Shown here: positions 6,506 to 61,546 of the stretch, in pieces
How positions within the stretch are numbered: position 1 is the stretch's first letter
How the letters are laid out: each line of letters starts with the position of its first letter
DNA from: Candidatus [Bacteroides] periocalifornicus
Lineage (GTDB): Bacteria > Bacteroidota > Bacteroidia > Bacteroidales > CAJPTX01
Assembly: GCA_001421095.1 (NCBI GenBank)
Contig: LIIK01000008.1
Span: forward strand, 2,791 to 66,790
Direction: 5' to 3'
DNA: 64,000 nt
Translations under genes and position numbers: made by a program
The notes under the pieces: generated by a model
What the model was told of the DNA's origin: nothing
Database searches by the model: none
What the model saw: only the letters and a program-made list of their open reading frames with translations

Positions 6506-8641
6506 ATGCGAATACTAGGCTGGTTTGGGCGGCTCCGGGTGAGGGTGGCCTTGATCTTTGGGGTATCTGCAGTGTTGCTGTACCTTTTGATACCCAGGAA
6601 CGCAAGGTTCTACTATGATTACCAGAAGGGTAAGGTGTGGACCTACAGCACCCTGATAGCACCTTACGATTACCCCCTCTATAAACCCGCAGAGGAGTAT
6701 GCCAAGGAGCTAGATGCGGTGCGTAAGCGCGCTGTGCCGATTTTTCAGCTAGACACCTCGGTGGCGGCAAATACAGAAACGGCGCTGGTGCGGGTTCTCG
6801 ATGCGCATTTGCTGGCGCGGTATGATTCCCTTTTGCTGCAAGGGCGAGGAGGACATGCTATAGGGCCTAGAAGCCTGCCAGAGGCTGAATTGCAGCGTCT
6901 CCATGAGTTGCTGTCATACATCTATGGGGTAGGGGTGGTGGAGAATCCGCAAGTGCTGCAAGTGGCCAATGGGGTCTCCTTCTCGGTGCTGCGCGATGGT
7001 ATAGCCTACCCTACTGCATTGGATGAGGTTTTTACCCCAGTGGTAGCTGCGGGTCGTATAGTAGCAGAGCTTCGCAACAGGCTGGGCAATGAGGTGGGCG
7101 GTGCTCTGGGTGGGGTATCCGCAGTGGCCAAGCGGATTCAGCCCAACCTACGCTACGATGCCGAGCTCTCTGGGCAGATAATCCAAGAACGGATGGCTGC
7201 CGTATCGCGGGTTCAGGGCTTGGTGCGCAAAGGGGAACATGTGGCCGAGAAGGGAGAGGTGGTAAATGAGGAGACCTTTATCAGGCTCGAGTCTCTACGC
7301 GAGGAGATGGTCAACCAGAGGGCAGAGGGGGGCTGGAGCGTAGTCCAGGAGGTTTGCCATGCTGTACTCTCGGTGCTGGTCATGGGGCTCTTCCTGTTGT
7401 TCATGGTGCGGGTTTACCCGAGGGTGCTTCGGCATACCCGAAAGCTGCTATTCATCATGCTGTTGGCCGGCTTGATGACCACGGTCGCCTTTCTCGTGAT
7501 ACGCTTTTCGCCACAGTTTCTCTACGTGGTTCCGGTGGCCATCGTACCATTGCTGGTACTCACATTCTTTGATGCCCGGCTAGCTTTCATGACCTACCTG
7601 ATGGTGGTAAGCTGCATCAGTTTCCATGCGCCTAACAGCTTTGCGTTCGTGGTGATGAGCTTTGCGGTTGGCCTGGTGGCAGTGTATGCCCAACGCCATA
7701 TATACCGCCGGGGGCAGCTCTTTAGCCTAGTGATTTGCATGCTACTCTGCAGCGAGCTGACCTATGTGGTGATGAAGGTGATTCAGGAAGGGGAATTGAA
7801 CCGGATCGACTGGATGGATGCCGCGCTCCTGGGTGGCAATGCGCTTTTGGTGCTGGCTACCTACCAGCTGATTTACCCAATCGAACGGATTTTTGGCTTT
7901 GTGTCGCACACCACGCTCATGGAGCTTTGCGATACGAACCAACCCCTGCTGCGCGAGCTTGGCGAAAAAGCGCCTGGTACGCTGCAGCATAGCCTACAAG
8001 TGGCCAACCTTGCCGAGGCGGCTGCATTGAAAATCGGTGCCGATGCCCTGCTGGTGCGTACCGGTGCTCTGTACCACGATATTGGGAAGATGGAGCATCC
8101 TGAATTCTTCACCGAGAACCAGCACCCAGGGATGAATCCGCATGCCCAGCTCAGCGAGATAGAGAGCTCTCGGGTGATAGTGGCCCATGTGGCCAATGGC
8201 ATACAGCTAGCCCATAAGCATCGGCTGCCTCAGCAGGTGGTAGATTTTATACGAACGCACCACGGCACTACCAAAACCGAGTATTTCTACAGAACCTACC
8301 GGATGAAGCACCCCGATGAGCCAGACTGCCCTGAGCTGTTTCAGTACCCGGGCCCTCGCCCCTTTAGCCGAGAAATGGCGCTGCTCATGATGGCAGATTC
8401 CATAGAGGCTGCCTCGCGTAGCCTGAAGGTTATAACCGAGGAGAGCCTCCAGGAGCTTGTGGATAAGATTATAGCCAACCAGCAGCGTGAGGAACAGTAC
8501 GCAGATACGAACCTCACCTTCAGGGATGTGAAGATAGTAAAGGAACTCTTTGTAAGCAAGCTGCAGAATATTTACCACACGAGGATCGAGTACCCCGCAG
8601 AAGTGGACAGCGAGCAGGAAAAGAAATCGTCAGAATCATAG
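6506..8641 (+). CDS. 7TM receptor with intracellular HD/HDIG phosphohydrolase domain
   Basis: Extracytoplasmic N-terminal domain, a multi-TM block, and a C-terminal HD domain (LYHDIGK, IRTHHGTT). Confidence 0.8.
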   Translation: MRILGWFGRLRVRVALIFGVSAVLLYLLIPRNARFYYDYQKGKVWTYSTLIAPYDYPLYKPAEEYAKELDAVRKRAVPIFQLDTSVAANTETALVRVLDAHLLARYDSLLLQGRGGHAIGPRSLPEAELQRLHELLSYIYGVGVVENPQVLQVANGVSFSVLRDGIAYPTALDEVFTPVVAAGRIVAELRNRLGNEVGGALGGVSAVAKRIQPNLRYDAELSGQIIQERMAAVSRVQGLVRKGEHVAEKGEVVNEETFIRLESLREEMVNQRAEGGWSVVQEVCHAVLSVLVMGLFLLFMVRVYPRVLRHTRKLLFIMLLAGLMTTVAFLVIRFSPQFLYVVPVAIVPLLVLTFFDARLAFMTYLMVVSCISFHAPNSFAFVVMSFAVGLVAVYAQRHIYRRGQLFSLVICMLLCSELTYVVMKVIQEGELNRIDWMDAALLGGNALLVLATYQLIYPIERIFGFVSHTTLMELCDTNQPLLRELGEKAPGTLQHSLQVANLAEAAALKIGADALLVRTGALYHDIGKMEHPEFFTENQHPGMNPHAQLSEIESSRVIVAHVANGIQLAHKHRLPQQVVDFIRTHHGTTKTEYFYRTYRMKHPDEPDCPELFQYPGPRPFSREMALLMMADSIEAASRSLKVITEESLQELVDKIIANQQREEQYADTNLTFRDVKIVKELFVSKLQNIYHTRIEYPAEVDSEQEKKSSES

Positions 8642-8695
8642 AATTCACATTGTTAAAATGAGTTTTTAACTGCTTCAAAAGGCCAAAATAGAACG

Positions 8696-10018
8696 ATGGA
8701 TGCAGAGACGATGATAGTAACGGAGCAGACCTATATTAACTTGCTGCGTAGCGAGGTGGTGCCGGCTCTTGGGTGTACAGAACCCATAGCTGTGGCGCTG
8801 GCAGTAGCCCGGGCGCGTGAGGCTCTCCCTGGCCAATGTGTACGTGTATCGGTGGCCACAAGCGCCAATATCTATAAAAACGGTATGGGGGTCGGAATCC
8901 CAGGCACTGGCCAAACCGGGCTAACCATTGCTGCCGCTCTAGGCGCTATAGAGGGACGGTCTGCCGACAGCCTAGAGTTGCTAAAGCACGTGAATGCCGA
9001 GGTAGTGGCTAGGGCTCGCCAGCTGGTGGCCGAGGGGGCGGTAGACATCCACATTCAGGAGGGGTCGCCTAAGCTGTATGTGCGTGCCACACTGCATGAT
9101 AAGGAGGGCAATGTGGCTACCTGTACTATACAGGATAAGCACTCGTCCATAGCAGAGGTTACGCTGAATGGCAAATCGCTGCTTGCGGGTGGCGACGGAA
9201 CGGTGGATGATAGCGAATGCCATGCAGCACCTAGCGATGGGAGCGCGGCTAGGGCTATCACGGTGGCCGGAATTTTCGATTTTGCCGATAGAGTCCCGAT
9301 AGAAAAGATTGCATTTATACTTGAGAGCGAGAAGCTTAATAGAAAGATTGCGCAGGAGGGGCTCTCTGGCAACTACGGCCTTGAGGTGGGACGGAAAATA
9401 AAAGAGAGAATGGAGGCTGGCACGCTCGGGAAGGGGCTGATGACCGAGGCGATGGCAATGACCGCGGCAGCTAGCGATGCCCGTATGGCGGGTTCTACCA
9501 CCCCGGTAATGAGCAATTCGGGGAGTGGGAACCAAGGGATTACCGCAACGCTCCCCGTGGTGGCTGCGGCAGACTATTTACACTCTAGCACCGAGAAGCT
9601 AACCAGGGCACTGGCCCTCTCGCACCTAGTGGCCATACACATCAAAGGGTATCTCGGTAGACTGTCGGCGCTCTGCGGCTGCGTGGTGGCCTCTTCTGGC
9701 GCTGGCTGCGGAATAGCCTACCTAATGGGCGGGGGTGAAAAGGAGGTGGAAGCTACGATTAAGAATATGCTTGGGAGCGTAACCGGGATGCTTTGCGATG
9801 GTGCCAAGGTCGGCTGTGCGCTTAAGGTCAGTTCTGGGGTAAGCACGGCGGTAACCTCAGCGCTCCTCGCAATGGAGGGTTCCTGTATATCGGCCAATGA
9901 CGGGATCATTGAGACTGATATAGAGCGTTGTATCCGTAATCTCGGCAACATCGGGGCAGAGGGCATGCGTGAGACCGACGAGATGGTTCTGGAAATCATG
10001 ACGCACAAGGCAGAGTAG
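8696..10018 (+). CDS. UPF0597/serine dehydratase alpha-like family protein (YhaM/CyuA-like, putative L-cysteine desulfidase)
   Basis: Family-typical N-terminus LRSEVVPALGCTEPIAVALAVA, then SNSGSGNQG and CDGAKVGCALK. Confidence 0.75.
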   Translation: MDAETMIVTEQTYINLLRSEVVPALGCTEPIAVALAVARAREALPGQCVRVSVATSANIYKNGMGVGIPGTGQTGLTIAAALGAIEGRSADSLELLKHVNAEVVARARQLVAEGAVDIHIQEGSPKLYVRATLHDKEGNVATCTIQDKHSSIAEVTLNGKSLLAGGDGTVDDSECHAAPSDGSAARAITVAGIFDFADRVPIEKIAFILESEKLNRKIAQEGLSGNYGLEVGRKIKERMEAGTLGKGLMTEAMAMTAAASDARMAGSTTPVMSNSGSGNQGITATLPVVAAADYLHSSTEKLTRALALSHLVAIHIKGYLGRLSALCGCVVASSGAGCGIAYLMGGGEKEVEATIKNMLGSVTGMLCDGAKVGCALKVSSGVSTAVTSALLAMEGSCISANDGIIETDIERCIRNLGNIGAEGMRETDEMVLEIMTHKAE

Positions 10019-54675: not shown

Positions 54676-54701
54676 GGCGGAATACCGCAAAATCTGATTC
54701 A

Positions 54702-54738
54702 ACGGGCGATGCGAAGAGCATCGTCCGTTTTTTTTTTT
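54702..54738 (+). terminator. Rho-independent terminator
   Basis: 11-bp stem acgggcgatgc/gcatcgtccgt, then T11. Confidence 0.8.
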
Positions 54739-54756
54739 GCAATTTATTGATGTCTG

Positions 54757-54832
54757 GTAAAACTTAATGGGGGTTACGAAATCTCCTAAGAATATAGTCA
54801 AAATCTTCAAAAATAGGCTTATAAAGGCCTAA
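54757..54832 (+). repeat. Left arm of ~76-81-bp imperfect inverted repeat bounding the 5.7-kb cassette
   Basis: gtaaaactta..ggggttacgaaatctcctaagaatatagtcaaaatcttcaaaaataggcttataaaggcctaa is the reverse complement (with a few mismatches and indels) of 60421-60501. Confidence 0.8.
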
Positions 54833-55233
54833 CAAGCAAGAAATACCCAGATAATAGCAATTTGTATAATCTGTCTAAAAGATTGCCTCTGTATTAAAAT
54901 TGGCTATAACTATAAGATTTTTATCTATTTGCAGTAATCGTATGTATTTTTAGCGGACAGCAATAAAAAAAGATTGAACCCATTACGAAACTTTTGCAGG
55001 GGGGCATCGTGCCAAATTTCGCTCTGGTATAGACTGGGAGGTGTTGATGGTATGTTATTTCACGGCTCGTTGCCCTCCTTAGTAAGGACGCGGTGTAACC
55101 CAACCCCAAGGGAGGCCCCAAACCGAACAAAGAAAGCAAAAGATATCAACGCCAATTGACTCTGAAATCTTGCACGCCGGGATTTGAATCACTACCTAGT
55201 TGTGGCGTGCCTGTAGAACGGTTATGATCCACT

Positions 55234-56256
55234 TCACATTTCTTCGCTCCACTGCATACATTCCGGGTTATAATGGCATTTATAGGGTTTATCTGTAAGG
55301 TTTTCCAGAAAGGCTCTACAGTCATTGCAAAGATATCTGAACTCGCACAATTTACATACTGAAACACGATCTGTGTTGATCATTCCTAAGGATTGGAATT
55401 TTTCATTACTCACAATATCTACTAACTGAACGTCATTCTGATCTATATTACCGTAGTAGCGAGGAATACAGGGACAATTCATTACATCCCCTTCTGATGA
55501 TATGAAGAGTTTCTTGTACAAGCAGCTGTTATATAACTTATTGAACATATAGGAGTGTACAGTCTTCAATCTGTAAAGAGTTCTCCTATTTATCACTCCA
55601 CAGTCTCTGGGAGATGAAAAACATTGCTCTGAATAAAGTATGAATCCTATCGATTGGGATGTGAATTCTGTTTTGATCTTCTTATAATAATTCTTTTCTT
55701 GGTTAAATACTATCATCGATAGCATCGGATATTTTTCTAGGAAAGAAATTGCTTCGTCTACATGATTCCAATTCGGCTGGCAGATTATTAGTTCGATTGA
55801 TAGCCATTCATGCTGTAAAAATGGCTGTAGCGTCTTGTCGACTTCTGCAAGCGATACAGGAAGGAAATATCGAAACTGAAGATGCTGGCAATTCAACTTT
55901 GCGAGTTGTGCCGCAATATAATCATATCTATGCGCATGCTTCTCAATATCTATACATGCGATTTCTATTAGGCACGGAGAGCAGTATATCTCCTCGATTT
56001 TTCTAAATCCAGTAATATCCTCCACTAGAACTCCAAGCCGGTAACGTAAGATAAAGTCGATAAATTGCTGTATGAATTCATGCCATTCCTCTCCCCATTT
56101 GGAAAAAATACACTCAATAGTTTCGGTAGAGAATTGCTCCTGCAAACCACACGGCAAATTTGGGATATAGAGGAGTTCTTCCCTTTTGAAATCAAGCACG
56201 AGCGTTCTTTTCGCTCCCTTGGTGAAAAAAACGTCTGGGAAAATAAGTAGATACAT
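55234..56256 (-). CDS. SPASM-domain peptide maturase ('grasp-with-spasm' type), no canonical radical-SAM CX3CX2C motif
   Basis: The C-terminal Cys pattern fits SPASM: C-x10-G-x4-C (CLYKKLFISSEGDVMNC), then CKLCEFRYLCNDC, then YKCHYNPEC. The N-terminal half has only CSPCLIEIAC (C-x2-C-x5-C). AT-rich codon usage. Confidence 0.75.
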   Translation of the reverse strand: MYLLIFPDVFFTKGAKRTLVLDFKREELLYIPNLPCGLQEQFSTETIECIFSKWGEEWHEFIQQFIDFILRYRLGVLVEDITGFRKIEEIYCSPCLIEIACIDIEKHAHRYDYIAAQLAKLNCQHLQFRYFLPVSLAEVDKTLQPFLQHEWLSIELIICQPNWNHVDEAISFLEKYPMLSMIVFNQEKNYYKKIKTEFTSQSIGFILYSEQCFSSPRDCGVINRRTLYRLKTVHSYMFNKLYNSCLYKKLFISSEGDVMNCPCIPRYYGNIDQNDVQLVDIVSNEKFQSLGMINTDRVSVCKLCEFRYLCNDCRAFLENLTDKPYKCHYNPECMQWSEEM

Positions 56257-56459
56257 TATCCGTCATCTTCATTTTTTGTAGTAAATCCATATATTGTAAC
56301 GGATTTCCAACGATCACATAGGCTGTATTGACTATAGCCATGATATTTCTGGGAAAACGAGAAATTCTTTTTCTCAGAAATTAAATGCTCAGAATCAGCC
56401 TCCCATTCTTTTAGCTCTAAGCTTCGGAAAAAGAGCGGAAATGTTTCTTCTTGTGCCAT
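56256..56459 (-). CDS. 67-aa ORF translationally coupled between the ATP-grasp and SPASM genes (function unknown)
   Basis: Its ATG lies 4 nt after the ATP-grasp stop, and its TAA overlaps the SPASM ATG by 1 nt (TAATG). Acidic C-terminus (KNEDDG). Confidence 0.5.
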   Translation of the reverse strand: MAQEETFPLFFRSLELKEWEADSEHLISEKKNFSFSQKYHGYSQYSLCDRWKSVTIYGFTTKNEDDG

Positions 56460-56463
56460 AGTC

Positions 56464-57444
56464 TTACAGTAAGGACGCTAATTCTTTCTCTAGGTAGTAG
56501 TTGCAGGCTGTACCATAGGCCGTAAATTGCCCCACTGGGTTCACTTCGAGAAATACGTAAGCACCGTTCGAATCTACTACCAAATCAATAGCCCCGAATT
56601 GCAAATCCAAGAGTCGCATCAAATGGGAAAGCTTCTGAGCGATTGAATCGGGAAGTCTATAAGGAACAATGCGAAGATCCTTTGGCTGGCAACGTCTTCC
56701 ATCAATGGTTGCCCCTTCAAGTTCCTGCGTGAATAGGGCCACCGCATAGCAACGTCCAGCTATATAGATTACGCGAAGCTCAAATCGCTTTTCAATTTTT
56801 TCTTGAAAAAGCGCATGGGGAAAAGTATCTGGTATTGAGGACAGATCTTCCTCCGTCACCAGTGAAGTGTATGATATATAAGCGCTAGATTTTTGAACAT
56901 CGTAAACCCCTTCATACATTGGCTTTACGATCATATCCCCTTTCTGCTTAATCAAATCTTTCAACTCGCTTTTCTTGTTTATGATATAAGTCGCTGGCGT
57001 TTTAAGCCCAATGTTTCTAGCTATTACAAGTACACTTAGCTTATTCAGCTCGCGTTTTTCGTATTCGCAGAGTTTAAAGCTTGCCTGCTTTTGAATCTGC
57101 TCAAAAATAAAAGCCCGATAAACGAGAAACTCGGTTTTTAGGAATTCCTTATAATGATCGATTTTGTAGGCTTCACATTTGTCATGCGGAAGATCTGCAT
57201 GTGCCGTGGCTGGAGGTAGTGCTAGGTTGATTCCACATTTTCGATACCAAAAGCTCGTGATTTCTGAGATGTCAATATCCCTCGCACAGTAGATAGATCG
57301 GGCGCTCAGCTTCCCATTTGAGTATTTGAAATGAATATCATGACAATCCCCATTGAACCGGAAATAGTTTTTTCCCCAGAAGTAAAGCCAATCAATCACC
57401 CTAGAGGTGGCGAAATCATCTAATCGCGAGGATATAGCTATCAT
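56464..57444 (-). CDS. ATP-grasp peptide maturase (graspetide/'grasp-with-spasm' type)
   Basis: MIAISSRLDDFATSRVIDWL N-terminal pre-ATP-grasp region. Later VKPMYEG, FELRVIYIAGRCYAVA and YVFLEVNPVGQF. The track start at 57573 adds 43 codons and is less likely. Confidence 0.8.
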   Translation of the reverse strand: MIAISSRLDDFATSRVIDWLYFWGKNYFRFNGDCHDIHFKYSNGKLSARSIYCARDIDISEITSFWYRKCGINLALPPATAHADLPHDKCEAYKIDHYKEFLKTEFLVYRAFIFEQIQKQASFKLCEYEKRELNKLSVLVIARNIGLKTPATYIINKKSELKDLIKQKGDMIVKPMYEGVYDVQKSSAYISYTSLVTEEDLSSIPDTFPHALFQEKIEKRFELRVIYIAGRCYAVALFTQELEGATIDGRRCQPKDLRIVPYRLPDSIAQKLSHLMRLLDLQFGAIDLVVDSNGAYVFLEVNPVGQFTAYGTACNYYLEKELASLL

Positions 57445-57602: not shown

Positions 57603-57788
57603 TTACTTCAAGTCAGTCAGTTTTTCTGTATCAGCATCGCTATCTACATCCTTACCGCTGGCCTCGCTGCACTGCATCCCTGAAGACAACGTAAAGGAAA
57701 GATGCCAATCCCATTCCTTACCACCAAGAAGTTCTTCTTGCATGCTCTGTGGAATTTCAAAATCCACATTGAAATTCTTAACATCCAT
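57603..57788 (-). CDS. Candidate RiPP precursor peptide (61 aa) with double-glycine leader
   Basis: MDVKNFNVDFEIPQSMQEELLGG | KEWDWHLSFTLSSGMQCSEASGKDVDSDADTEKLTDLK. Verified ATG at 57788-57786 and TAA at 57605-57603. It is the only AT-rich part of the 181-aa track ORF and lies 158 nt upstream of the ATP-grasp gene. Confidence 0.65.
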   Translation of the reverse strand: MDVKNFNVDFEIPQSMQEELLGGKEWDWHLSFTLSSGMQCSEASGKDVDSDADTEKLTDLK

Positions 57789-57829: not shown

Positions 57830-60133
57830 CTACAATCGCTGTACCTCGTCGGATACCTCGTTTGGTTTCTTCGTAGTTTTCATACCCCATCGGTACTGCA
57901 CTGAGAGGAAGACGCCGCGAATCCCACCCCGCGAAAAGCTGTCCCGCTGGATTCCGTTGGTCTCCAGGAGGATGTTCTCGTAGGCCGTATTGAACATATC
58001 GTCGGCTATTAGCTGAGTTACGAGCTGCCCCCCGAGCCAGCTCTTCGATATGCGCCCATCTGCATTGATGTAGCCCTTCGTCACCCCGGTGGCATAGCTC
58101 CCACCGTGCACGTGGGAGCGTACCCCAAGAGTTAGGTTCCATCCCCACCCTACTGCGTACCGTACTCGCAGCGAGTAGGCCACGAAGGGGTGGGTGTAGC
58201 GTTGGCCATTGTAGCGCAGATCCTGGAGCTGCACGCCAACCTGCCCGTTTATGGAGAGATGCCAGATCTTCGGGCTGAAGGCGAGCGCGGTGAAGTACTG
58301 GTTGTGGTCTGGCAGATTCATGGGGGCGACCAGCACTATGGCCTGGGCATCGTCATGCAGCCGCGCCACCTCAAAGACACGTGCGTAGACCCTGCTGTAG
58401 GAGACCTCCCACGATAGCCACCCGTAGGAGAGGTTGCATGCGACCTCGCGCAGCCGGCTGGTGCGCAGATTGGGGTTGCCATCCCAGCGGAGATACCGAT
58501 TGTTCATGAAGTGGTTCGAGGAGAGCTGTTCGTAGGAGGGTCTATCCACCATCTCCCTGTACGCCAGCTCGAGAGCCAGATTATCAGACTCGTAGCCCAG
58601 GGTGACCACAGGGAGAAGATCGAGCGACCTGCGGCTCTGCCCGGGCTGTAGCACCCTGTCTGCGTAGTACCGATAATCCACGTACTCCGCCCCGAGCTGC
58701 CCTTGGAGCCTCCACTGCTCGCCCAGCGTGTAGGTGCAGCCCACGTAGCCCCCTAGGCGATCTTGCCGGAACTGATCGGAGGCGAGCTGCGCGCGGCTAT
58801 ACTCCCCTTCACGAGCTGTGCGTGCGTAGTCTGCCCCTAGGGAAAGTTCAAAATCGCCTAGTTTGTGGGAGAAATCCCCCTTGGCAAAGAGAAGGCGGGC
58901 GCGCGATACGGTACGGTAGGCATCTGGCACCCCGCCTGTCCCGTAGAGGATCGCCCGCTCCGATTCAGCTCCCGTCCAGTAGTAGCTGCCCGTGATAGCT
59001 GCGGTTGTCCGCTCAGTCTGGAAATCGTAACCGCCCCCCACGGTGTAGCCCTGATTTTTATCTAGGGTTTCGCTCCGGAAGGGCTGCTCTTCCCTTGTGG
59101 TTGAACCAGAGCGCGGGCGTAACTGGTGCGAGAAATCACCCGCTATCACAGTTCGTTTCCTACGGCTCGGCTGGGCATCTACATACAGGTTGAGCGTATG
59201 GCTACTGCTCAGATGGTAGAACAGCTTGGCGCCACCCGATAGCTCACGATTTTGTCGACGGCGATTCGCAAGCAGACGATTATCCACCGTACCCCGCGAG
59301 GTGCCGTAGTGGAACACCTCCTCATCGTGCAGGCGGTTGGTATTCTCAAATTCGTGAATCCCGAGAAGGATATCGAGCCGGGACAGGCTAAGGAAACCGC
59401 TTGCATCCGCAGTATTCGTCCAACCGTTACGCAGTCCGAATTTGTCGTAGAGGTCGAACCCGATATATTCGCTCCGCTTACGGTAGGTGTTGATGATGAT
59501 GGCCGAGCCTACATTTACCCCGTACCGACCTGAGGGGTTCGTGGTGATCTCCACATTGCGAATCTGTGACGATTTCACGCGCGCAAGTTCGTTGGCATCC
59601 TGCACTTCCCGACCGTCTATGAATATGGCTGGCGTGCCATGCCCGAAGATGGACACCGCACCGTCTGTAACCTCCACCCGGGGCATTTCACGTAGCACAT
59701 CGAGCAGCGTGCCGACTGCCTCCAGCTGAGTCCCCTGGATCTTCACCGTGGTGAGGTTGGCCTTCCGCTCGATGCGTTCCGCATCGCCCCGGACTACCAC
59801 CCGCTCGATCTCCTGCACTGGAGAGTCGGCCACTACGATGCCAAGGTCAGTATCGCCTATCACGTTCACTGATATCTCTTGCAGATTCTGCCCGAGGTAG
59901 GTGAACCGTAGCCCGTAGTGACCCACGGAAACCGTGCCCGCCATGTGGCCTTGCGCATCGGTCCAGTACACTGCAGCGTGCCTCTGCTCCCCCTCGGGGG
60001 TGAATATGCAGGTAACATCGGGCAGCGGCCTACCTGTGCTATCCTGCAGCGTGAGGCTTACTCTAGCCACTTGGGCAACAGCCGGGGACACGGCAAGCAG
60101 TGACGCAACAAATACGGCTATCAATCTTTTCAT
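57830..60133 (-). CDS. Outer-membrane beta-barrel protein (CarboxypepD_reg-like + plug-like + OMP_b-brl_3/TonB-dependent-receptor-like barrel)
   Basis: Signal peptide MKRLIAVFVASLLAVSPAVAQ. N-terminal VSLTLQDSTGRPLPDV. Plug-like FGHGTPAIFIDGREV. Alternating beta-strand pattern ending in LSVQYRWG. Confidence 0.75.
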   Translation of the reverse strand: MKRLIAVFVASLLAVSPAVAQVARVSLTLQDSTGRPLPDVTCIFTPEGEQRHAAVYWTDAQGHMAGTVSVGHYGLRFTYLGQNLQEISVNVIGDTDLGIVVADSPVQEIERVVVRGDAERIERKANLTTVKIQGTQLEAVGTLLDVLREMPRVEVTDGAVSIFGHGTPAIFIDGREVQDANELARVKSSQIRNVEITTNPSGRYGVNVGSAIIINTYRKRSEYIGFDLYDKFGLRNGWTNTADASGFLSLSRLDILLGIHEFENTNRLHDEEVFHYGTSRGTVDNRLLANRRRQNRELSGGAKLFYHLSSSHTLNLYVDAQPSRRKRTVIAGDFSHQLRPRSGSTTREEQPFRSETLDKNQGYTVGGGYDFQTERTTAAITGSYYWTGAESERAILYGTGGVPDAYRTVSRARLLFAKGDFSHKLGDFELSLGADYARTAREGEYSRAQLASDQFRQDRLGGYVGCTYTLGEQWRLQGQLGAEYVDYRYYADRVLQPGQSRRSLDLLPVVTLGYESDNLALELAYREMVDRPSYEQLSSNHFMNNRYLRWDGNPNLRTSRLREVACNLSYGWLSWEVSYSRVYARVFEVARLHDDAQAIVLVAPMNLPDHNQYFTALAFSPKIWHLSINGQVGVQLQDLRYNGQRYTHPFVAYSLRVRYAVGWGWNLTLGVRSHVHGGSYATGVTKGYINADGRISKSWLGGQLVTQLIADDMFNTAYENILLETNGIQRDSFSRGGIRGVFLSVQYRWGMKTTKKPNEVSDEVQRL

Positions 60134-60420
60134 ACCACCAAGTTATAAACTATTTTTGGTTCAATAGCAAGCGTAGAGTCCAAAAAATATTTATTATACT
60201 ATACTGTGCTAATCATCAACCGTTTAGCGATGAAAAAAAGAGAATAACCCATGCGACCCGGCTCGAAGATCGCCCAGAAAATTATTATTGCTGACCAGTA
60301 AAAATACATTACAATTACTACAAATGACTGATAATCTTATAGTTATAGTCAAATTTAATGCAGGAGTTTACCTTTTAGACGGGTTATGCCAACTGCTATT
60401 ATCAGGGTGTTTTTCGCCTG

Positions 60421-60501
60421 TTAGACCTTATATAAGCCTATATTTTGAAGTTATTGACTATATTCCTAGGAGATTTCGTAACCCCATCAAGTAAGTTTTA
60501 C
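60421..60501 (-). repeat. Right arm of the inverted repeat bounding the cassette
   Basis: ttagaccttatataagcctatattttgaagttattgactatattcctaggagatttcgtaaccccatcaagtaagttttac. Confidence 0.8.
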
Positions 60502-60517
60502 TGGATAGCAATAATAG

Positions 60518-61546
60518 GCAATAGATTACGAGACGGGTGAACGGAGTTTCGGCTCAGTGGCAGTGGGCAATAATCTGGAGTATACTGACGATGGGATTAA
60601 GAACATAGCGGCCTCCCCCGCCTTATTTGCCAGCGTGGGGCTTTGGAGCAACTACACCCATGCCACCTACACGCACAGCTGGCGGCAGCTCTACTACATG
60701 GGTTCTGTGGGGCTACAGGGCCTAGCGGTCAATGCTACGAGTAAGCGGCATGACTACTGGCGGCCACGGGTAGCCGTGAGCCTTACATGGCGGTTGCCCC
60801 ACAGGCAGTCGGTACGCGGGAGCTACTACCTCACCAATCAGCTCCCGGAGAGCCGGAATCTGGTGACCTTCAACCAGTCGACCAACCCGTGGTTTCGCGA
60901 AGAGGGCAATCCCTACCTCGTCCCCATCCAGAGCCATCGTTTCAGCCTGAACTATGAGTGCGGGTTGGGCGATTTTCAGCTTCGCCTGCAGGTACGCCAT
61001 AACCGCAACAGCCAGATGATAGAGCCCTACCTGAGGCAAGAGGGAGCGGTGCAGGTCCAGTCGTACCGAAACAATGGCACTACGCTAGGCACCCATGCGG
61101 GGCTTGGGCTGAACTACCGAGGCGAGAGCATAATGGTATCGCTTACCTCTGAGTACTCGTGGGTGGCCTACAATGGGCAGCGGCCCAAGGGCTATGTGGG
61201 GGTAAGGGGCTTCCTCCGTTGGGATTTTGGCGACTTTTTCATGTACACCACCCTTGCCTGGCAGAACCAGAGCTACACGGCCATAGGCAGTACCGAATAC
61301 CCAGCCCCCCTAGAAGCCCACGTACAGATAGCTTGGCAGGCCACCAAGCGGCTCTACCTGGCACTGGCGCTGCCCTACTACTGGGGGGTGCGGAGCGAGA
61401 TAACGCGGATCGGGCAGGCAGACTACACGAGCTACCAGCGCACCTACTACCAGGGGGCCAGCTTTCGCCCTTGGGTGCTGGTGGCCTGGACGCTGCGTAG
61501 GAACGCCGAGCAGGCCATAGAGAACCGGATGCCCGAGCCGCTGTAG
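60518..61546 (+). pseudogene. 5'-truncated outer-membrane beta-barrel (OMP_b-brl_3-like) gene remnant
   Basis: The open frame starts right after a TAG at 60515, about 17 nt from the inverted-repeat arm, where GC content jumps. It encodes only the C-terminal ~340 aa of a barrel (NPWFREEGNPYLVP..., ends ...RPWVLVAWTL) with no signal, plug or N-terminal domain. Confidence 0.6.

What the first reader, a model, noticed from the sequence alone, without database searches (positions are those of the whole stretch)
55234..56256. SPASM-domain protein with no canonical radical-SAM cysteine triad
The C-terminal third fits the SPASM seven-Cys signature: C-x10-G-x4-C, then C-x2-C-x5-C-x2-C, then a distal C.

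Scanning all Cys residues in the N-terminal 220 aa, I find no CX3CX2C. The only cluster is CSPCLIEIAC (C-x2-C-x5-C).

Two readings are possible. The protein may use a non-canonical SAM-cluster motif, or it may be a SPASM protein working without radical-SAM chemistry. Either would be mechanistically unusual.
Basis: partly seen in the sequence, partly recalled or inferred. Interest (0 to 1): 0.6.

Follow-up and report, generated by a model that had tools for sequence, protein, structure and literature searches.

The report
SPASM partner protein lacking radical-SAM site
This gene belongs to a known, untested family (GwsS, TIGR04193) that always sits beside a ring-forming peptide ligase; it keeps two iron-sulfur sites but, like every relative examined, lacks the cysteine triad needed for radical-SAM chemistry.

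Summary
The 340-aa ORF at 55234-56256 (-) has the SPASM cysteine signature and no CX3CX2C in any frame. Start and frame are right: NCBIfam TIGR04193, the grasp-with-spasm SPASM maturase, matches end to end at 211.9 bits (cut-off 175).

It is the last gene of a low-GC operon: GG-leader precursor, ATP-grasp ligase GwsG, a 67-aa LPL-type protein, then GwsS.

The missing triad is a family trait:
- 0 of 157 relatives and 0 of 78 ORFs from named genomes carry CX3CX2C.
- 0 of 100 match Pfam Radical_SAM.
- GGE occurs in 4 of 157.
- Eight cysteines are invariant, all in the C-terminal third. That is enough for two [4Fe-4S] clusters.

An AlphaFold model (pLDDT 96) significantly resembles only SuiB and CteB, which are radical SAM/SPASM peptide maturases. 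The middle domain is a shortened, poorly conserved four-unit beta/alpha remnant.

Most likely GwsS is a degenerate radical-SAM maturase working without SAM radicals, as an iron-sulfur, peptide-binding partner of the ligase. That role is inferred, not shown.

It is a new member of a known family. Published surveys call the family 'radical SAM', which the sequences do not support.

The parts
55234..56256 (-). gwsS: 340-aa grasp-with-spasm SPASM domain protein (the finding)
   Evidence: TIGR04193 scores 211.9 bits against a cut-off of 175, full length. The AF2 model has pLDDT 96.0 and pTM 0.91. The only significant PDB fold matches are SuiB and CteB.
56017..56256 (-). GwsS residues 1-80: N-terminal beta-beta-beta-beta-alpha-alpha-alpha domain, RRE-like (peptide-recognition) by topology
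   Evidence: DSSP on the model gives E2-5, E9-13, E17-22, E27-32, H38-41, H47-54, H56-71. The global fold matches are SuiB and CteB; that both start with an RRE is my recollection, and per-domain alignments were not visible. No PqqD/RRE Pfam match was found by sequence, so this assignment is structural inference only.
55954..55983 (-).
   Evidence: These positions are Cys in 1%, 4% and 1% of 157 family members. The cluster is shared only with the 96%-identical P0002. It lies before and within strand beta-1 (99-104) of the model.
55612..55962 (-). GwsS residues 99-215: shortened beta/alpha domain, a remnant of the radical-SAM partial TIM barrel, with no cluster loop and no GGE
   Evidence: The model shows four beta/alpha units (E99-104/H111-120, E125-130/H136-143, E153-158/H166-174, E179-183) plus extra strands. 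The beta-1 to alpha-1 loop is 6 residues and has no Cys. Modelled alone, the domain gives only weak hits, nearly all to TIM barrels (E>=0.087). It is the least conserved domain, at 23% pairwise identity. Pfam Radical_SAM does not match.
55237..55611 (-). GwsS residues 216-340: SPASM domain with eight invariant Cys (219, 245, 261, 301, 304, 310, 313, 327)
   Evidence: All eight Cys are present in 157 of 157 sequences. PF13186 scores 24.4 bits. hhalign to canonical radical SAM/SPASM proteins covers 246-318 at 93% probability. It is the most conserved domain, at 47% pairwise identity.
56256..56459 (-). 67-aa LPL-family small protein, translationally coupled to gwsS (TAATG overlap)
   Evidence: It is conserved in relatives, with PLF[FL]RS and RWKS motifs. 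A small ORF fills the same gap in 74 of 77 loci from named genomes and carries LP[LIV] and KPISK motifs. The LPL family is described in PMC8939145.
56464..57444 (-). gwsG: ATP-grasp graspetide ligase. The ORF is open to 57573, but the likely start is M44 at 57444.
   Evidence: TIGR04192 scores 254.5 bits against a cut-off of 230, matching residues 46-369. It is 48% identical to the L015 ligase, starting at M44.
57603..57785 (-). 60-aa precursor peptide: leader ...EIPQSMQEELLGG, core rich in Ser/Thr and Asp
   Evidence: Read from the sequence. It aligns with precursors in L013-L015. The leader, S-x-T-x-S and SGKD-x-DSD are conserved. The single core Cys is not conserved.
57830..60133 (-). 767-aa OMP_b-brl_3 outer-membrane barrel, syntenic with the operon in relatives
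   Evidence: PF14905 matches at 1.4e-32. It is 36% identical over its full length to the barrel at the same position in L015.
54737..54969 (.). Left arm of a roughly 235-nt imperfect inverted repeat that brackets the barrel gene and the gws operon
   Evidence: Five collinear blocks are 77-93% complementary to 60282-60521.
60282..60521 (.). Right arm of the same inverted repeat

Best explanation
The ORF is GwsS, the SPASM-domain partner of a 'grasp-with-spasm' graspetide (ATP-grasp RiPP) gene cluster.

It descends from an RRE / radical-SAM / SPASM peptide maturase of the SuiB/CteB type. In the whole family the radical-SAM core has decayed:
- The barrel is cut down to about four beta/alpha units.
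- The CX3CX2C loop and the GGE SAM-binding motif are gone.
- No conserved replacement cysteine triad exists.

Strong selection retains two things:
- an N-terminal peptide-recognition-like domain;
- a SPASM domain with eight invariant cysteines, enough to ligate two [4Fe-4S] clusters fully.

GwsS therefore cannot generate a 5'-deoxyadenosyl radical in the canonical way.

**Most likely mode of action (inferred, not shown).** GwsS is an obligate, SAM-independent accessory subunit of the ligase machinery. Its N-terminal domain, its conserved basic SPASM surface, or both, hold the GG-leader precursor and/or the LPL mini-protein. This presents the acidic, Ser/Thr-rich core to the ATP-grasp ligase GwsG for ester ring formation. 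The two Fe-S clusters would be structural or redox-sensing.

**Shown here:** family membership, family-wide absence of the radical-SAM signatures, the invariant eight-Cys SPASM domain, strict gene adjacency with the ligase, and the fold relationship.

**Inferred:** Fe-S occupancy, peptide binding, complex formation, and lack of SAM cleavage.

**Confidence.** The stated value of 0.5 is for the whole statement, including the partner-subunit role. The identity and the family-wide loss of the radical-SAM site alone I put at about 0.9.
For: **Membership**
- TIGR04193 scores 211.9 bits (cut-off 175); the upstream TIGR04192 ligase scores 254.5 bits (cut-off 230).

**Family-wide loss of radical-SAM signatures**
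- 0 of 157 relatives have CX3CX2C.
- 0 of 78 ORFs from named genomes have it.
- 0 of 100 members hit Pfam Radical_SAM, while 55 of 100 hit SPASM.
- The same Radical_SAM model finds 16 other genes in this genome but not this one.
- GGE occurs in 4 of 157.

**Cysteines and conservation**
- The invariant Cys are 219, 245, 261, 301, 304, 310, 313 and 327.
- Pairwise identity is 47% in the SPASM domain, 23% in the middle domain and 29% in the N-terminal domain.

**Fold**
- The model has pLDDT 96.
- The only significant PDB matches are SuiB (5v1q, 5v1s, 5v1t) and CteB (5why, 5wgg), at E 4e-6 to 5e-5 and probability 1.0.
- The middle domain alone resembles TIM-barrel fragments, only weakly.

**Adjacency**
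- An ATP-grasp gene lies directly upstream in 77 of 77 testable loci, across the Bacteroidota, Acidobacteriota and Gemmatimonadota records listed.
- A small ORF lies between the two genes in 74 of 77.

**Core cysteine is not required**
- The window's core Cys is not conserved in relatives.
- 11 of 25 loci with recognisable precursors have Cys-free cores (rough mining).

**Literature**
- Branch-5 / group-14 graspetide clusters always carry this protein. No biochemical characterisation was found.
Against: - No experiment exists for any family member, so the scaffold/partner role is inference.
- Eight invariant Cys and many invariant charged SPASM residues (K249, E305, R307, D312, R314, K323, K326) look more like an active site than a passive scaffold. 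This favours the redox-enzyme rival.
- The N-terminal domain has no sequence match to PqqD/RRE models.
- Profile-profile comparison with canonical radical SAM/SPASM proteins aligns only the SPASM part. Descent of the middle domain from a radical-SAM barrel therefore rests on whole-protein fold matches with low TM-scores (0.29-0.45).
- Most family members carry semi-conserved Cys at positions 9 (82%), 21 (42%) and 123 (92%). This protein has V9 and L21.
Confidence: 0.5

Rival explanations
1. GwsS is a true tailoring enzyme that uses its two SPASM [4Fe-4S] clusters for SAM-independent chemistry on the precursor or on the cyclised graspetide. Examples would be a two-electron oxidation or reduction, or a cluster-bound substrate reaction. 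On this reading the degenerate barrel and the N-terminal domain only position the peptide.
For: - The SPASM domain is by far the most conserved part, at 47% pairwise identity.
- It carries many invariant polar or charged residues besides the eight Cys: N243, K249, N260, E305, R307, D312, R314, K323, K326, Y329 and W336.
- The protein has been retained next to the ligase across several phyla.
- From memory: auxiliary clusters of SPASM enzymes can bind substrate directly, as reported for CteB.
Against: - No SPASM domain is known to catalyse a reaction without the radical-SAM cluster.
- All eight Cys are invariant, which suggests both clusters are fully ligated and leave no open iron site.
- Precursor cores share no conserved redox-active residue. 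Cys is absent from many cores.
Confidence: 0.27
2. GwsS is still a radical-SAM enzyme that binds its SAM-activating cluster through non-canonical cysteines. In this protein these would be CSPCLIEIAC (C92, C95, C101), perhaps with C123. In most relatives they would be C9, C21 and C123, contributed from different segments as in Dph2.
For: - This lineage has a CX2CX5C cluster next to strand beta-1, an exact spacing seen in 0.6% of shuffles.
- C123 is 92% conserved, position 9 is Cys in 82% and position 21 in 42% of the family.
- From memory: non-canonical cluster motifs exist in ThiC, HmdB and Dph2.
Against: - C92, C95 and C101 are Cys in 1-4% of the family.
- The 43-51% identical relatives P0003-P0007 have neither these Cys nor C9/C21. 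No triad is therefore common to the family.
- Three Cys within 10 residues arises in 19% of shuffles.
- The cluster lies before and inside beta-1, and C123 lies at the N-terminal end of beta-2. That would be the barrel face opposite the usual SAM site, which is inference.
- There is no GGE or other SAM-binding motif.
- The barrel has only about four beta/alpha units.
Confidence: 0.05
3. The gene is a decaying relic with no function in this genome. The cassette is a recently acquired, truncated island without its own exporter.
For: - The operon is low in GC (0.35-0.44 against 0.53-0.61 in its flanks).
- TIGR04193 is absent from 13 of 13 same-genus genomes.
- The C39-peptidase ABC transporter that follows gwsS in relatives is missing here.
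- This protein departs from the family at two near-invariant SPASM positions, W291 to G and K295 to T.
Against: - All four ORFs are intact and translationally coupled.
- All eight invariant Cys and nearly all other invariant residues are kept.
- A 96%-identical copy stands for 78 member sequences in public data.
- A C39 ABC transporter exists elsewhere in the genome, on contig C19.
Confidence: 0.07
4. The missing triad is an annotation or sequencing artefact, caused by a wrong start codon or a frameshift that hides a normal radical-SAM core.
For: None found.
Against: - The profile match is end to end.
- The N-terminus matches the family consensus from residue 1.
- No CX3CX2C occurs in any of the three frames of that strand across 55101-56700.
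- 235 independent homologues show the same architecture.
Confidence: 0.01

Closest known systems
TIGR04193 / GwsS, 'grasp-with-spasm system SPASM domain peptide maturase'. This is cluster 20 of Makarova et al. 2022 (PMC8939145) and the SPASM protein of graspetide group 14 in Carter et al. 2026 (PMC13097080).
   Same: - The profile match is full length and above the curated cut-off.
- It has the same gene neighbours: GG-leader precursor, TIGR04192 ATP-grasp, LPL mini-protein and OMP_b-brl_3 barrel.
- It has the same eight invariant Cys and the same lack of CX3CX2C.
   Different: - It is only 26-35% identical to most family members. Its own sub-clade is at 43-51%, plus one relative at 96%.
- It has extra lineage-specific Cys at 92, 95 and 101.
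- It lacks the common family Cys at positions 9 and 21.
- It carries G291 and T295 at near-invariant W and K positions.
- No C39 ABC exporter follows it here.
RRE / radical SAM / SPASM RiPP maturases SuiB (PDB 5V1Q) and CteB (PDB 5WGG, 5WHY)
   Same: - These are the only significant structural matches.
- The domain order is the same: N-terminal peptide-recognition domain, beta/alpha domain, SPASM domain with two auxiliary-cluster Cys sets. The domain order of SuiB and CteB is from my knowledge of those structures.
- The SPASM region aligns by profile with canonical radical SAM/SPASM proteins.
   Different: - GwsS has no CX3CX2C, no GGE and no Pfam Radical_SAM match.
- Its barrel has about four beta/alpha units in about 120 residues, not six in more than 200.
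- TM-scores are only 0.29-0.45.
- Its partner is an ATP-grasp ligase, and its precursors often have Cys-free cores.
Partner-protein-dependent graspetide synthetases (MirB/MirC, CorC/CorD; PMC13097080)
   Same: A strictly co-occurring non-ligase protein sits beside a graspetide ATP-grasp ligase. This gives precedent for a required, non-catalytic partner.
   Different: Those partners are a PpiC-type chaperone-domain protein and a helper of a 2OG oxygenase. They are not Fe-S/SPASM proteins. No experiment links GwsS to this role.
PqqD/PqqE (peptide chaperone plus radical SAM/SPASM enzyme)
   Same: Makarova et al. proposed that the LPL mini-protein upstream of the SPASM gene is a PqqD-like chaperone. 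The gene order, small protein then SPASM protein, is the same.
   Different: - PqqE is a true radical-SAM enzyme with CX3CX2C.
- GwsS already carries its own RRE-like N-terminal domain.
- The LPL protein has no PqqD match. Its N-terminal PLFFRS motif looks more like the PFFARFL ligase-activating leader helix of microviridins; that comparison is my inference and echoes a remark in PMC8939145.

Membership tests
TIGR04193 (GwsS, grasp-with-spasm SPASM maturase) | Whole-protein score above the curated equivalog cut-off, with full-length alignment | tested here: met
   211.9 bits against a cut-off of 175; residues 2-338 align to profile positions 1-334 of 342. The same result came from the genome search.
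TIGR04193 (GwsS, grasp-with-spasm SPASM maturase) | Encoded next to a TIGR04192 ATP-grasp maturase and a short GG-leader precursor | tested here: met
   The upstream TIGR04192 ligase scores 254.5 bits against a cut-off of 230. The 60-aa GG-leader peptide lies at 57603-57785. Ligase adjacency holds in 77 of 77 testable loci elsewhere.
SPASM domain (PF13186 / TIGR04085) | Seven-Cys signature: CX9-15GX4C, gap, CX2CX5CX3C, gap, C | tested here: met
   The pattern is C245-x10-G256-x4-C261, C301-x2-C304-x5-C310-x2-C313, C327. The last spacing is x2, not x3. All seven, plus C219, are invariant in 157 sequences.
SPASM domain (PF13186 / TIGR04085) | Profile score above the curated threshold | tested here: met
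   PF13186 scores 24.4 bits against 21.5. TIGR04085 scores 22.3 bits, below its 27-bit cut-off. hhalign to canonical radical SAM/SPASM proteins gives 93% probability over residues 246-318.
SPASM domain (PF13186 / TIGR04085) | Binds two auxiliary [4Fe-4S] clusters | not testable with these tools
   Eight invariant Cys are consistent with this. Confirmation needs Fe/S analysis, EPR or a structure.
Radical SAM superfamily (PF04055) | CX3CX2C, or a conserved variant triad, that ligates the SAM-binding [4Fe-4S] cluster | tested here: not met
   - The motif is absent here in all three frames of the coding strand.
- It is absent in 157 of 157 and in 78 of 78 relatives.
- No N-terminal Cys triad is conserved across the family.
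- Only 3 of 143 members have any tight three-Cys cluster.
Radical SAM superfamily (PF04055) | Sequence-profile match to the Radical_SAM core | tested here: not met
   There is no PF04055 hit at E<=0.1. 0 of 100 family members hit it at E<=0.01. The genome search with PF04055 finds 16 other loci but not this one.
Radical SAM superfamily (PF04055) | GGE and related SAM-binding motifs | tested here: not met
   GGE occurs in 4 of 157 members. After beta-2 the family reads LQ-x-R-[FY]-[FY], with near-invariant R129.
Radical SAM superfamily (PF04055) | Partial (beta/alpha)6 TIM-barrel core | tested here: inconclusive
   The model shows about four beta/alpha units in residues 99-183 plus extra strands. 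The whole protein matches SuiB and CteB significantly. The isolated domain gives only weak, generic TIM-barrel hits at E>=0.087.
Radical SAM superfamily (PF04055) | Reductive cleavage of SAM to the 5'-deoxyadenosyl radical | not testable with these tools
   This needs an in vitro assay.
RRE (PqqD-like RiPP recognition element) | Three-stranded sheet plus three-helix winged-helix fold that binds leader peptides | tested here: inconclusive
   The topology beta x4 then alpha x3 in residues 1-78, and global matches to SuiB and CteB, which carry RREs by my recollection, fit this fold. No PqqD or RRE Pfam hit was found for 10 diverse N-termini at E<=10. Binding was not tested.

The most novel reading that the evidence does not exclude
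The GwsS family would be the first SPASM-domain proteins shown to function without any radical-SAM cluster. They could be a SAM-independent twin-[4Fe-4S] catalyst acting on graspetides. Alternatively they could be an iron-sulfur 'dead-enzyme' subunit that, together with the LPL mini-protein acting as a trans leader helix, is required to switch on the ATP-grasp ligase. Either result would define a new maturation logic for more than 590 gene clusters in Bacteroidota, Acidobacteriota and Gemmatimonadota.
Probability: 0.3. Interest if true: 0.7.

Novelty: new member of a known kind. Interest (0 to 1): 0.38.

Why it matters
**A published label looks wrong.** Graspetide surveys (PMC8939145) describe this partner as a 'radical SAM enzyme of the SPASM family'. 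They propose that it makes thioether or C-C cross-links. The sequence and model evidence here says the whole family lacks the radical-SAM cluster and SAM-binding motifs, so those predicted chemistries are unlikely.

**What that changes.**
- Product prediction for the largest uncharacterised Bacteroidota graspetide group would need revising.
- It raises a clean, testable question: what does a SPASM twin-cluster domain do on its own?

**For this genome.** The gene is an ordinary member of that family, on a small, recently acquired cassette.

Tried and rejected
- **Wrong start or frameshift.** Rejected by the end-to-end profile match and by a search of all three frames of the coding strand.
- **CSPCLIEIAC as a conserved alternative cluster.** Rejected by the family census.
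- **Sequence search of PDB**, with the single protein and with a 143-sequence profile. Only noise came back at E>=0.18, and not even SPASM enzymes were found.
- **hhalign against three canonical radical SAM/SPASM proteins from related genomes.** It aligned only the SPASM part, so it neither proves nor disproves descent of the middle domain.
- **Fold search of the middle domain alone.** There were no significant hits, only generic TIM-barrel fragments.
- **Pfam search of N-terminal domains for PqqD/RRE.** Nothing was found.
- **Cys-Cys distances in the model.** I could not measure them (C92/C95/C101/C123, or positions 9/21/123), because model coordinates are not exposed to the Python box.
- **Literature.** No paper in the library characterises GwsS or notes the missing triad. 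Haft & Basu 2011 and Iyer et al. 2009 are not held. My recollection that the TIGRFAM curators were aware of the missing motif is therefore unverified.
- **Precursor mining across 77 loci.** It was crude, using ATG-start ORFs and a GG rule, and found candidates in only 25 loci. The Cys statistics are indicative only.
Full report
**What is there.** The ORF at 55234..56256 on the minus strand encodes 340 aa.
- It has 18 cysteines.
- The C-terminal third carries C245-x10-G-x4-C261, C301-x2-C304-x5-C310-x2-C313 and C327.
- No CX3CX2C occurs in the protein, nor in any of the three frames of that strand across 55101-56700.
- Pfam finds only SPASM (PF13186, 24.4 bits, cut-off 21.5) and no Radical_SAM.

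**Identity.** NCBIfam TIGR04193, 'grasp-with-spasm system SPASM domain peptide maturase', matches residues 2-338 at 211.9 bits against a curated cut-off of 175. Start and frame are therefore right.

The gene closes a four-gene, same-strand, low-GC operon. GC is 0.35-0.44, against 0.53-0.61 in the flanks. The genes are:
- a 60-aa precursor with an EIPQSMQEELLGG leader and a Ser/Thr- and Asp-rich core (57603-57785);
- the ATP-grasp ligase GwsG (TIGR04192, 254.5 bits; likely start M44 at 57444);
- a 67-aa protein whose stop overlaps the gwsS start (56256-56459);
- GwsS itself.

Relatives in metagenomic integrative elements and in Hallella show the same order. There it is preceded by an OMP_b-brl_3 barrel, and in two loci it is followed by a C39-peptidase ABC exporter. 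The window has the barrel, which is 36% identical to its counterpart, but no exporter. One C39 ABC gene lies on another contig.

**Is the missing triad peculiar to this protein?** No.

I gathered 157 sequences: the query, six word-index hits, and the 150 best of 2,612 HMMER hits against 1.84 billion cluster representatives. Nearly all matches are full length, with E<=7e-33.
- None has CX3CX2C.
- Eight Cys are invariant: 219, 245, 261, 301, 304, 310, 313 and 327.
- C123 is 92% conserved.
- The 43-51% identical relatives read YYSPSVAEIMVIDIA where this protein reads YCSPCLIEIACIDIE.
- Only 3 of 143 members have any C-x1-8-C-x1-8-C in the N-terminal two-thirds.
- GGE occurs in 4 of 157.

Independent checks agree.
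- A scan of species genomes found at least 591 loci. In the best 80, 78 of 78 recoverable GwsS ORFs lack the triad. These come from Bacteroidota, from Thermoanaerobaculia and other Acidobacteriota, and from Longimicrobiaceae.
- 0 of 100 members match Pfam Radical_SAM, while 55 match SPASM.
- The Radical_SAM model finds 16 genes in this genome but not this one.

A tight three-Cys cluster arises in 19% of shuffles of the N-terminal 218 aa. CSPCLIEIAC is therefore best read as a lineage-specific feature, not a cofactor site.

**Fold.** An AlphaFold2 model built on 143 sequences is confident, with pLDDT 96.0 and pTM 0.91. It has three parts:
- residues 1-78: four strands and three helices, an RRE-like topology;
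- residues 99-183: four beta/alpha units, followed by extra strands up to 208;
- the SPASM domain.

The loop after strand beta-1 is where radical-SAM enzymes carry CX3CX2C. Here it is six residues long and has no Cys.

Foldseek against the PDB gives six significant matches, all to SuiB (5V1Q, 5V1S, 5V1T) or CteB (5WHY, 5WGG). Their E-values are 4e-6 to 5e-5, with probability 1.0 and TM-scores of 0.29-0.45. From my knowledge of those structures, these are RRE / radical-SAM / SPASM peptide maturases.

Other comparisons are weaker:
- The middle domain modelled alone (pLDDT 92.7) has no significant match. Its weak top hits are nearly all TIM-barrel fragments.
- Profile-profile alignment with three canonical radical SAM/SPASM proteins from related genomes covers only the SPASM region.

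Conservation is uneven. Pairwise identity is 47% in the SPASM domain, 29% in the N-terminal domain and 23% in the middle domain.

I read this as a maturase whose radical-SAM core has been truncated and has lost its catalytic signatures. Its SPASM domain stays under strong constraint. Descent of the middle domain from a radical-SAM barrel is likely but not proven.

**Context that bears on function.**
- An ATP-grasp gene lies directly upstream of gwsS in 77 of 77 loci that have upstream sequence. The gap is 167-472 nt, with one exception of 1488 nt.
- In 74 of 77 loci the gap holds a small ORF. It has an N-terminal LP[LIV] motif and a C-terminal KPISK-like motif. The window's version reads PLFFRS ... 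RWKSVTI.
- This is the 'LPL family' of Makarova et al. 2022. They noted that it always precedes the SPASM gene and that its motif resembles the leader helix missing from these precursors.
- The window's only core cysteine is not conserved in its closest relatives.
- In a rough survey, 11 of 25 loci with recognisable precursors have Cys-free cores. A cysteine-directed cross-link therefore cannot be the general job of GwsS.

**Mechanism.** Without the SAM cluster and SAM-binding motifs, canonical 5'-deoxyadenosyl radical chemistry is excluded for this family, with about 0.9 confidence. By analogy with anSME-type SPASM domains (from memory), the eight invariant Cys should ligate two [4Fe-4S] clusters fully. 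I weigh two roles.
- **Partner or scaffold subunit (about 0.5).** GwsS uses its RRE-like domain and basic SPASM surface to hold the precursor and/or the LPL protein for the ligase. Obligate non-catalytic partners of graspetide ligases now have precedent (PMC13097080).
- **SAM-independent Fe-S tailoring enzyme (about 0.27).** The density of invariant polar residues in the SPASM domain keeps this rival alive.

A cryptic radical-SAM activity (about 0.05), a dead relic (about 0.07) and an artefact (about 0.01) are unlikely.

**Comparison with what is known.** This is a bona fide member of a curated family, so it is not a new kind of protein.
- The NCBI name avoids the words 'radical SAM'.
- The main comparative paper calls the protein a radical SAM enzyme and predicts thioether or C-C chemistry.
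- The 2026 RODEO update says only 'SPASM-domain containing protein'.
- I found no experimental work on any member.

The useful outcome is a corrected expectation for the family and a sharply testable question. It is not a discovery specific to this window.

**Genome context.**
- TIGR04193 is absent from 13 of 13 same-genus genomes.
- The operon is AT-rich.
- Roughly 235-nt imperfect inverted repeats (54737-54969 and 60282-60521) bracket the barrel gene plus the operon.

Together these point to a recently acquired cassette.

Noticed in passing
window 54737-54969 and 60282-60521: Five collinear inverted-repeat blocks, 77-93% complementary, form arms of roughly 235 nt. They bracket a 5.8-kb cassette holding the OMP_b-brl_3 barrel and the gws operon. 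The barrel gene inside has host-like GC (about 0.6), while the operon is about 0.40.
   Followed up: partly
window 54676-55233: About 560 nt of non-coding DNA follows gwsS, where relatives (L015, L016) carry a C39-peptidase ABC exporter. The only strong C39 match in the genome is on another contig (G000:C19:2568-2948).
   Followed up: partly
window 56256-56459; L019-L098 gaps between the ATP-grasp and gwsS genes: The small protein between ligase and GwsS is conserved across phyla. It has an N-terminal LP[LIV]xx motif (window: PLFFRS, reminiscent of the microviridin PFFARFL leader helix) and a C-terminal [FY][HYK]KPISK motif (window: RWKSVTI). It could bridge the ligase and GwsS.
   Followed up: partly
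GwsS residues 291 and 295 (window 55372-55386): This protein has G291 and T295 where more than 90% of the family has K at 295 and most have W at 291. The 96%-identical relative keeps K295. This may be mild relaxation of constraint in this copy.
   Followed up: no
GwsS family positions 9, 21, 123: Most family members have Cys at position 9 (82%), often at 21 (42%), and at 123 (92%). This protein has V9, L21 and C123. I could not check whether these three lie together in 3D, because no coordinates were available.
   Followed up: no
G022 (same-order genome), contigs C419, C98, C659, C679, C649, C36, C609: One related genome carries at least seven TIGR04193 paralogues. Thirteen genomes of the window's own genus carry none.
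   Followed up: no
L013 (Hallella multisaccharivorax DSM 17128) 7486-9020: In this isolate genome the precursor, small protein and GwsS are present, but only about 100 nt separates the precursor from the small ORF. The ATP-grasp gene seems deleted. A near-identical metagenomic locus (L014) keeps a 277-aa ligase gene.
   Followed up: no
G000 contig C8, 56554-63572 and 121329-128347: Two pairs of radical-SAM hits with identical scores lie exactly 64,775 nt apart on one contig. This suggests a large duplication or an assembly artefact. The assembly is listed with 7.3% contamination.
   Followed up: no
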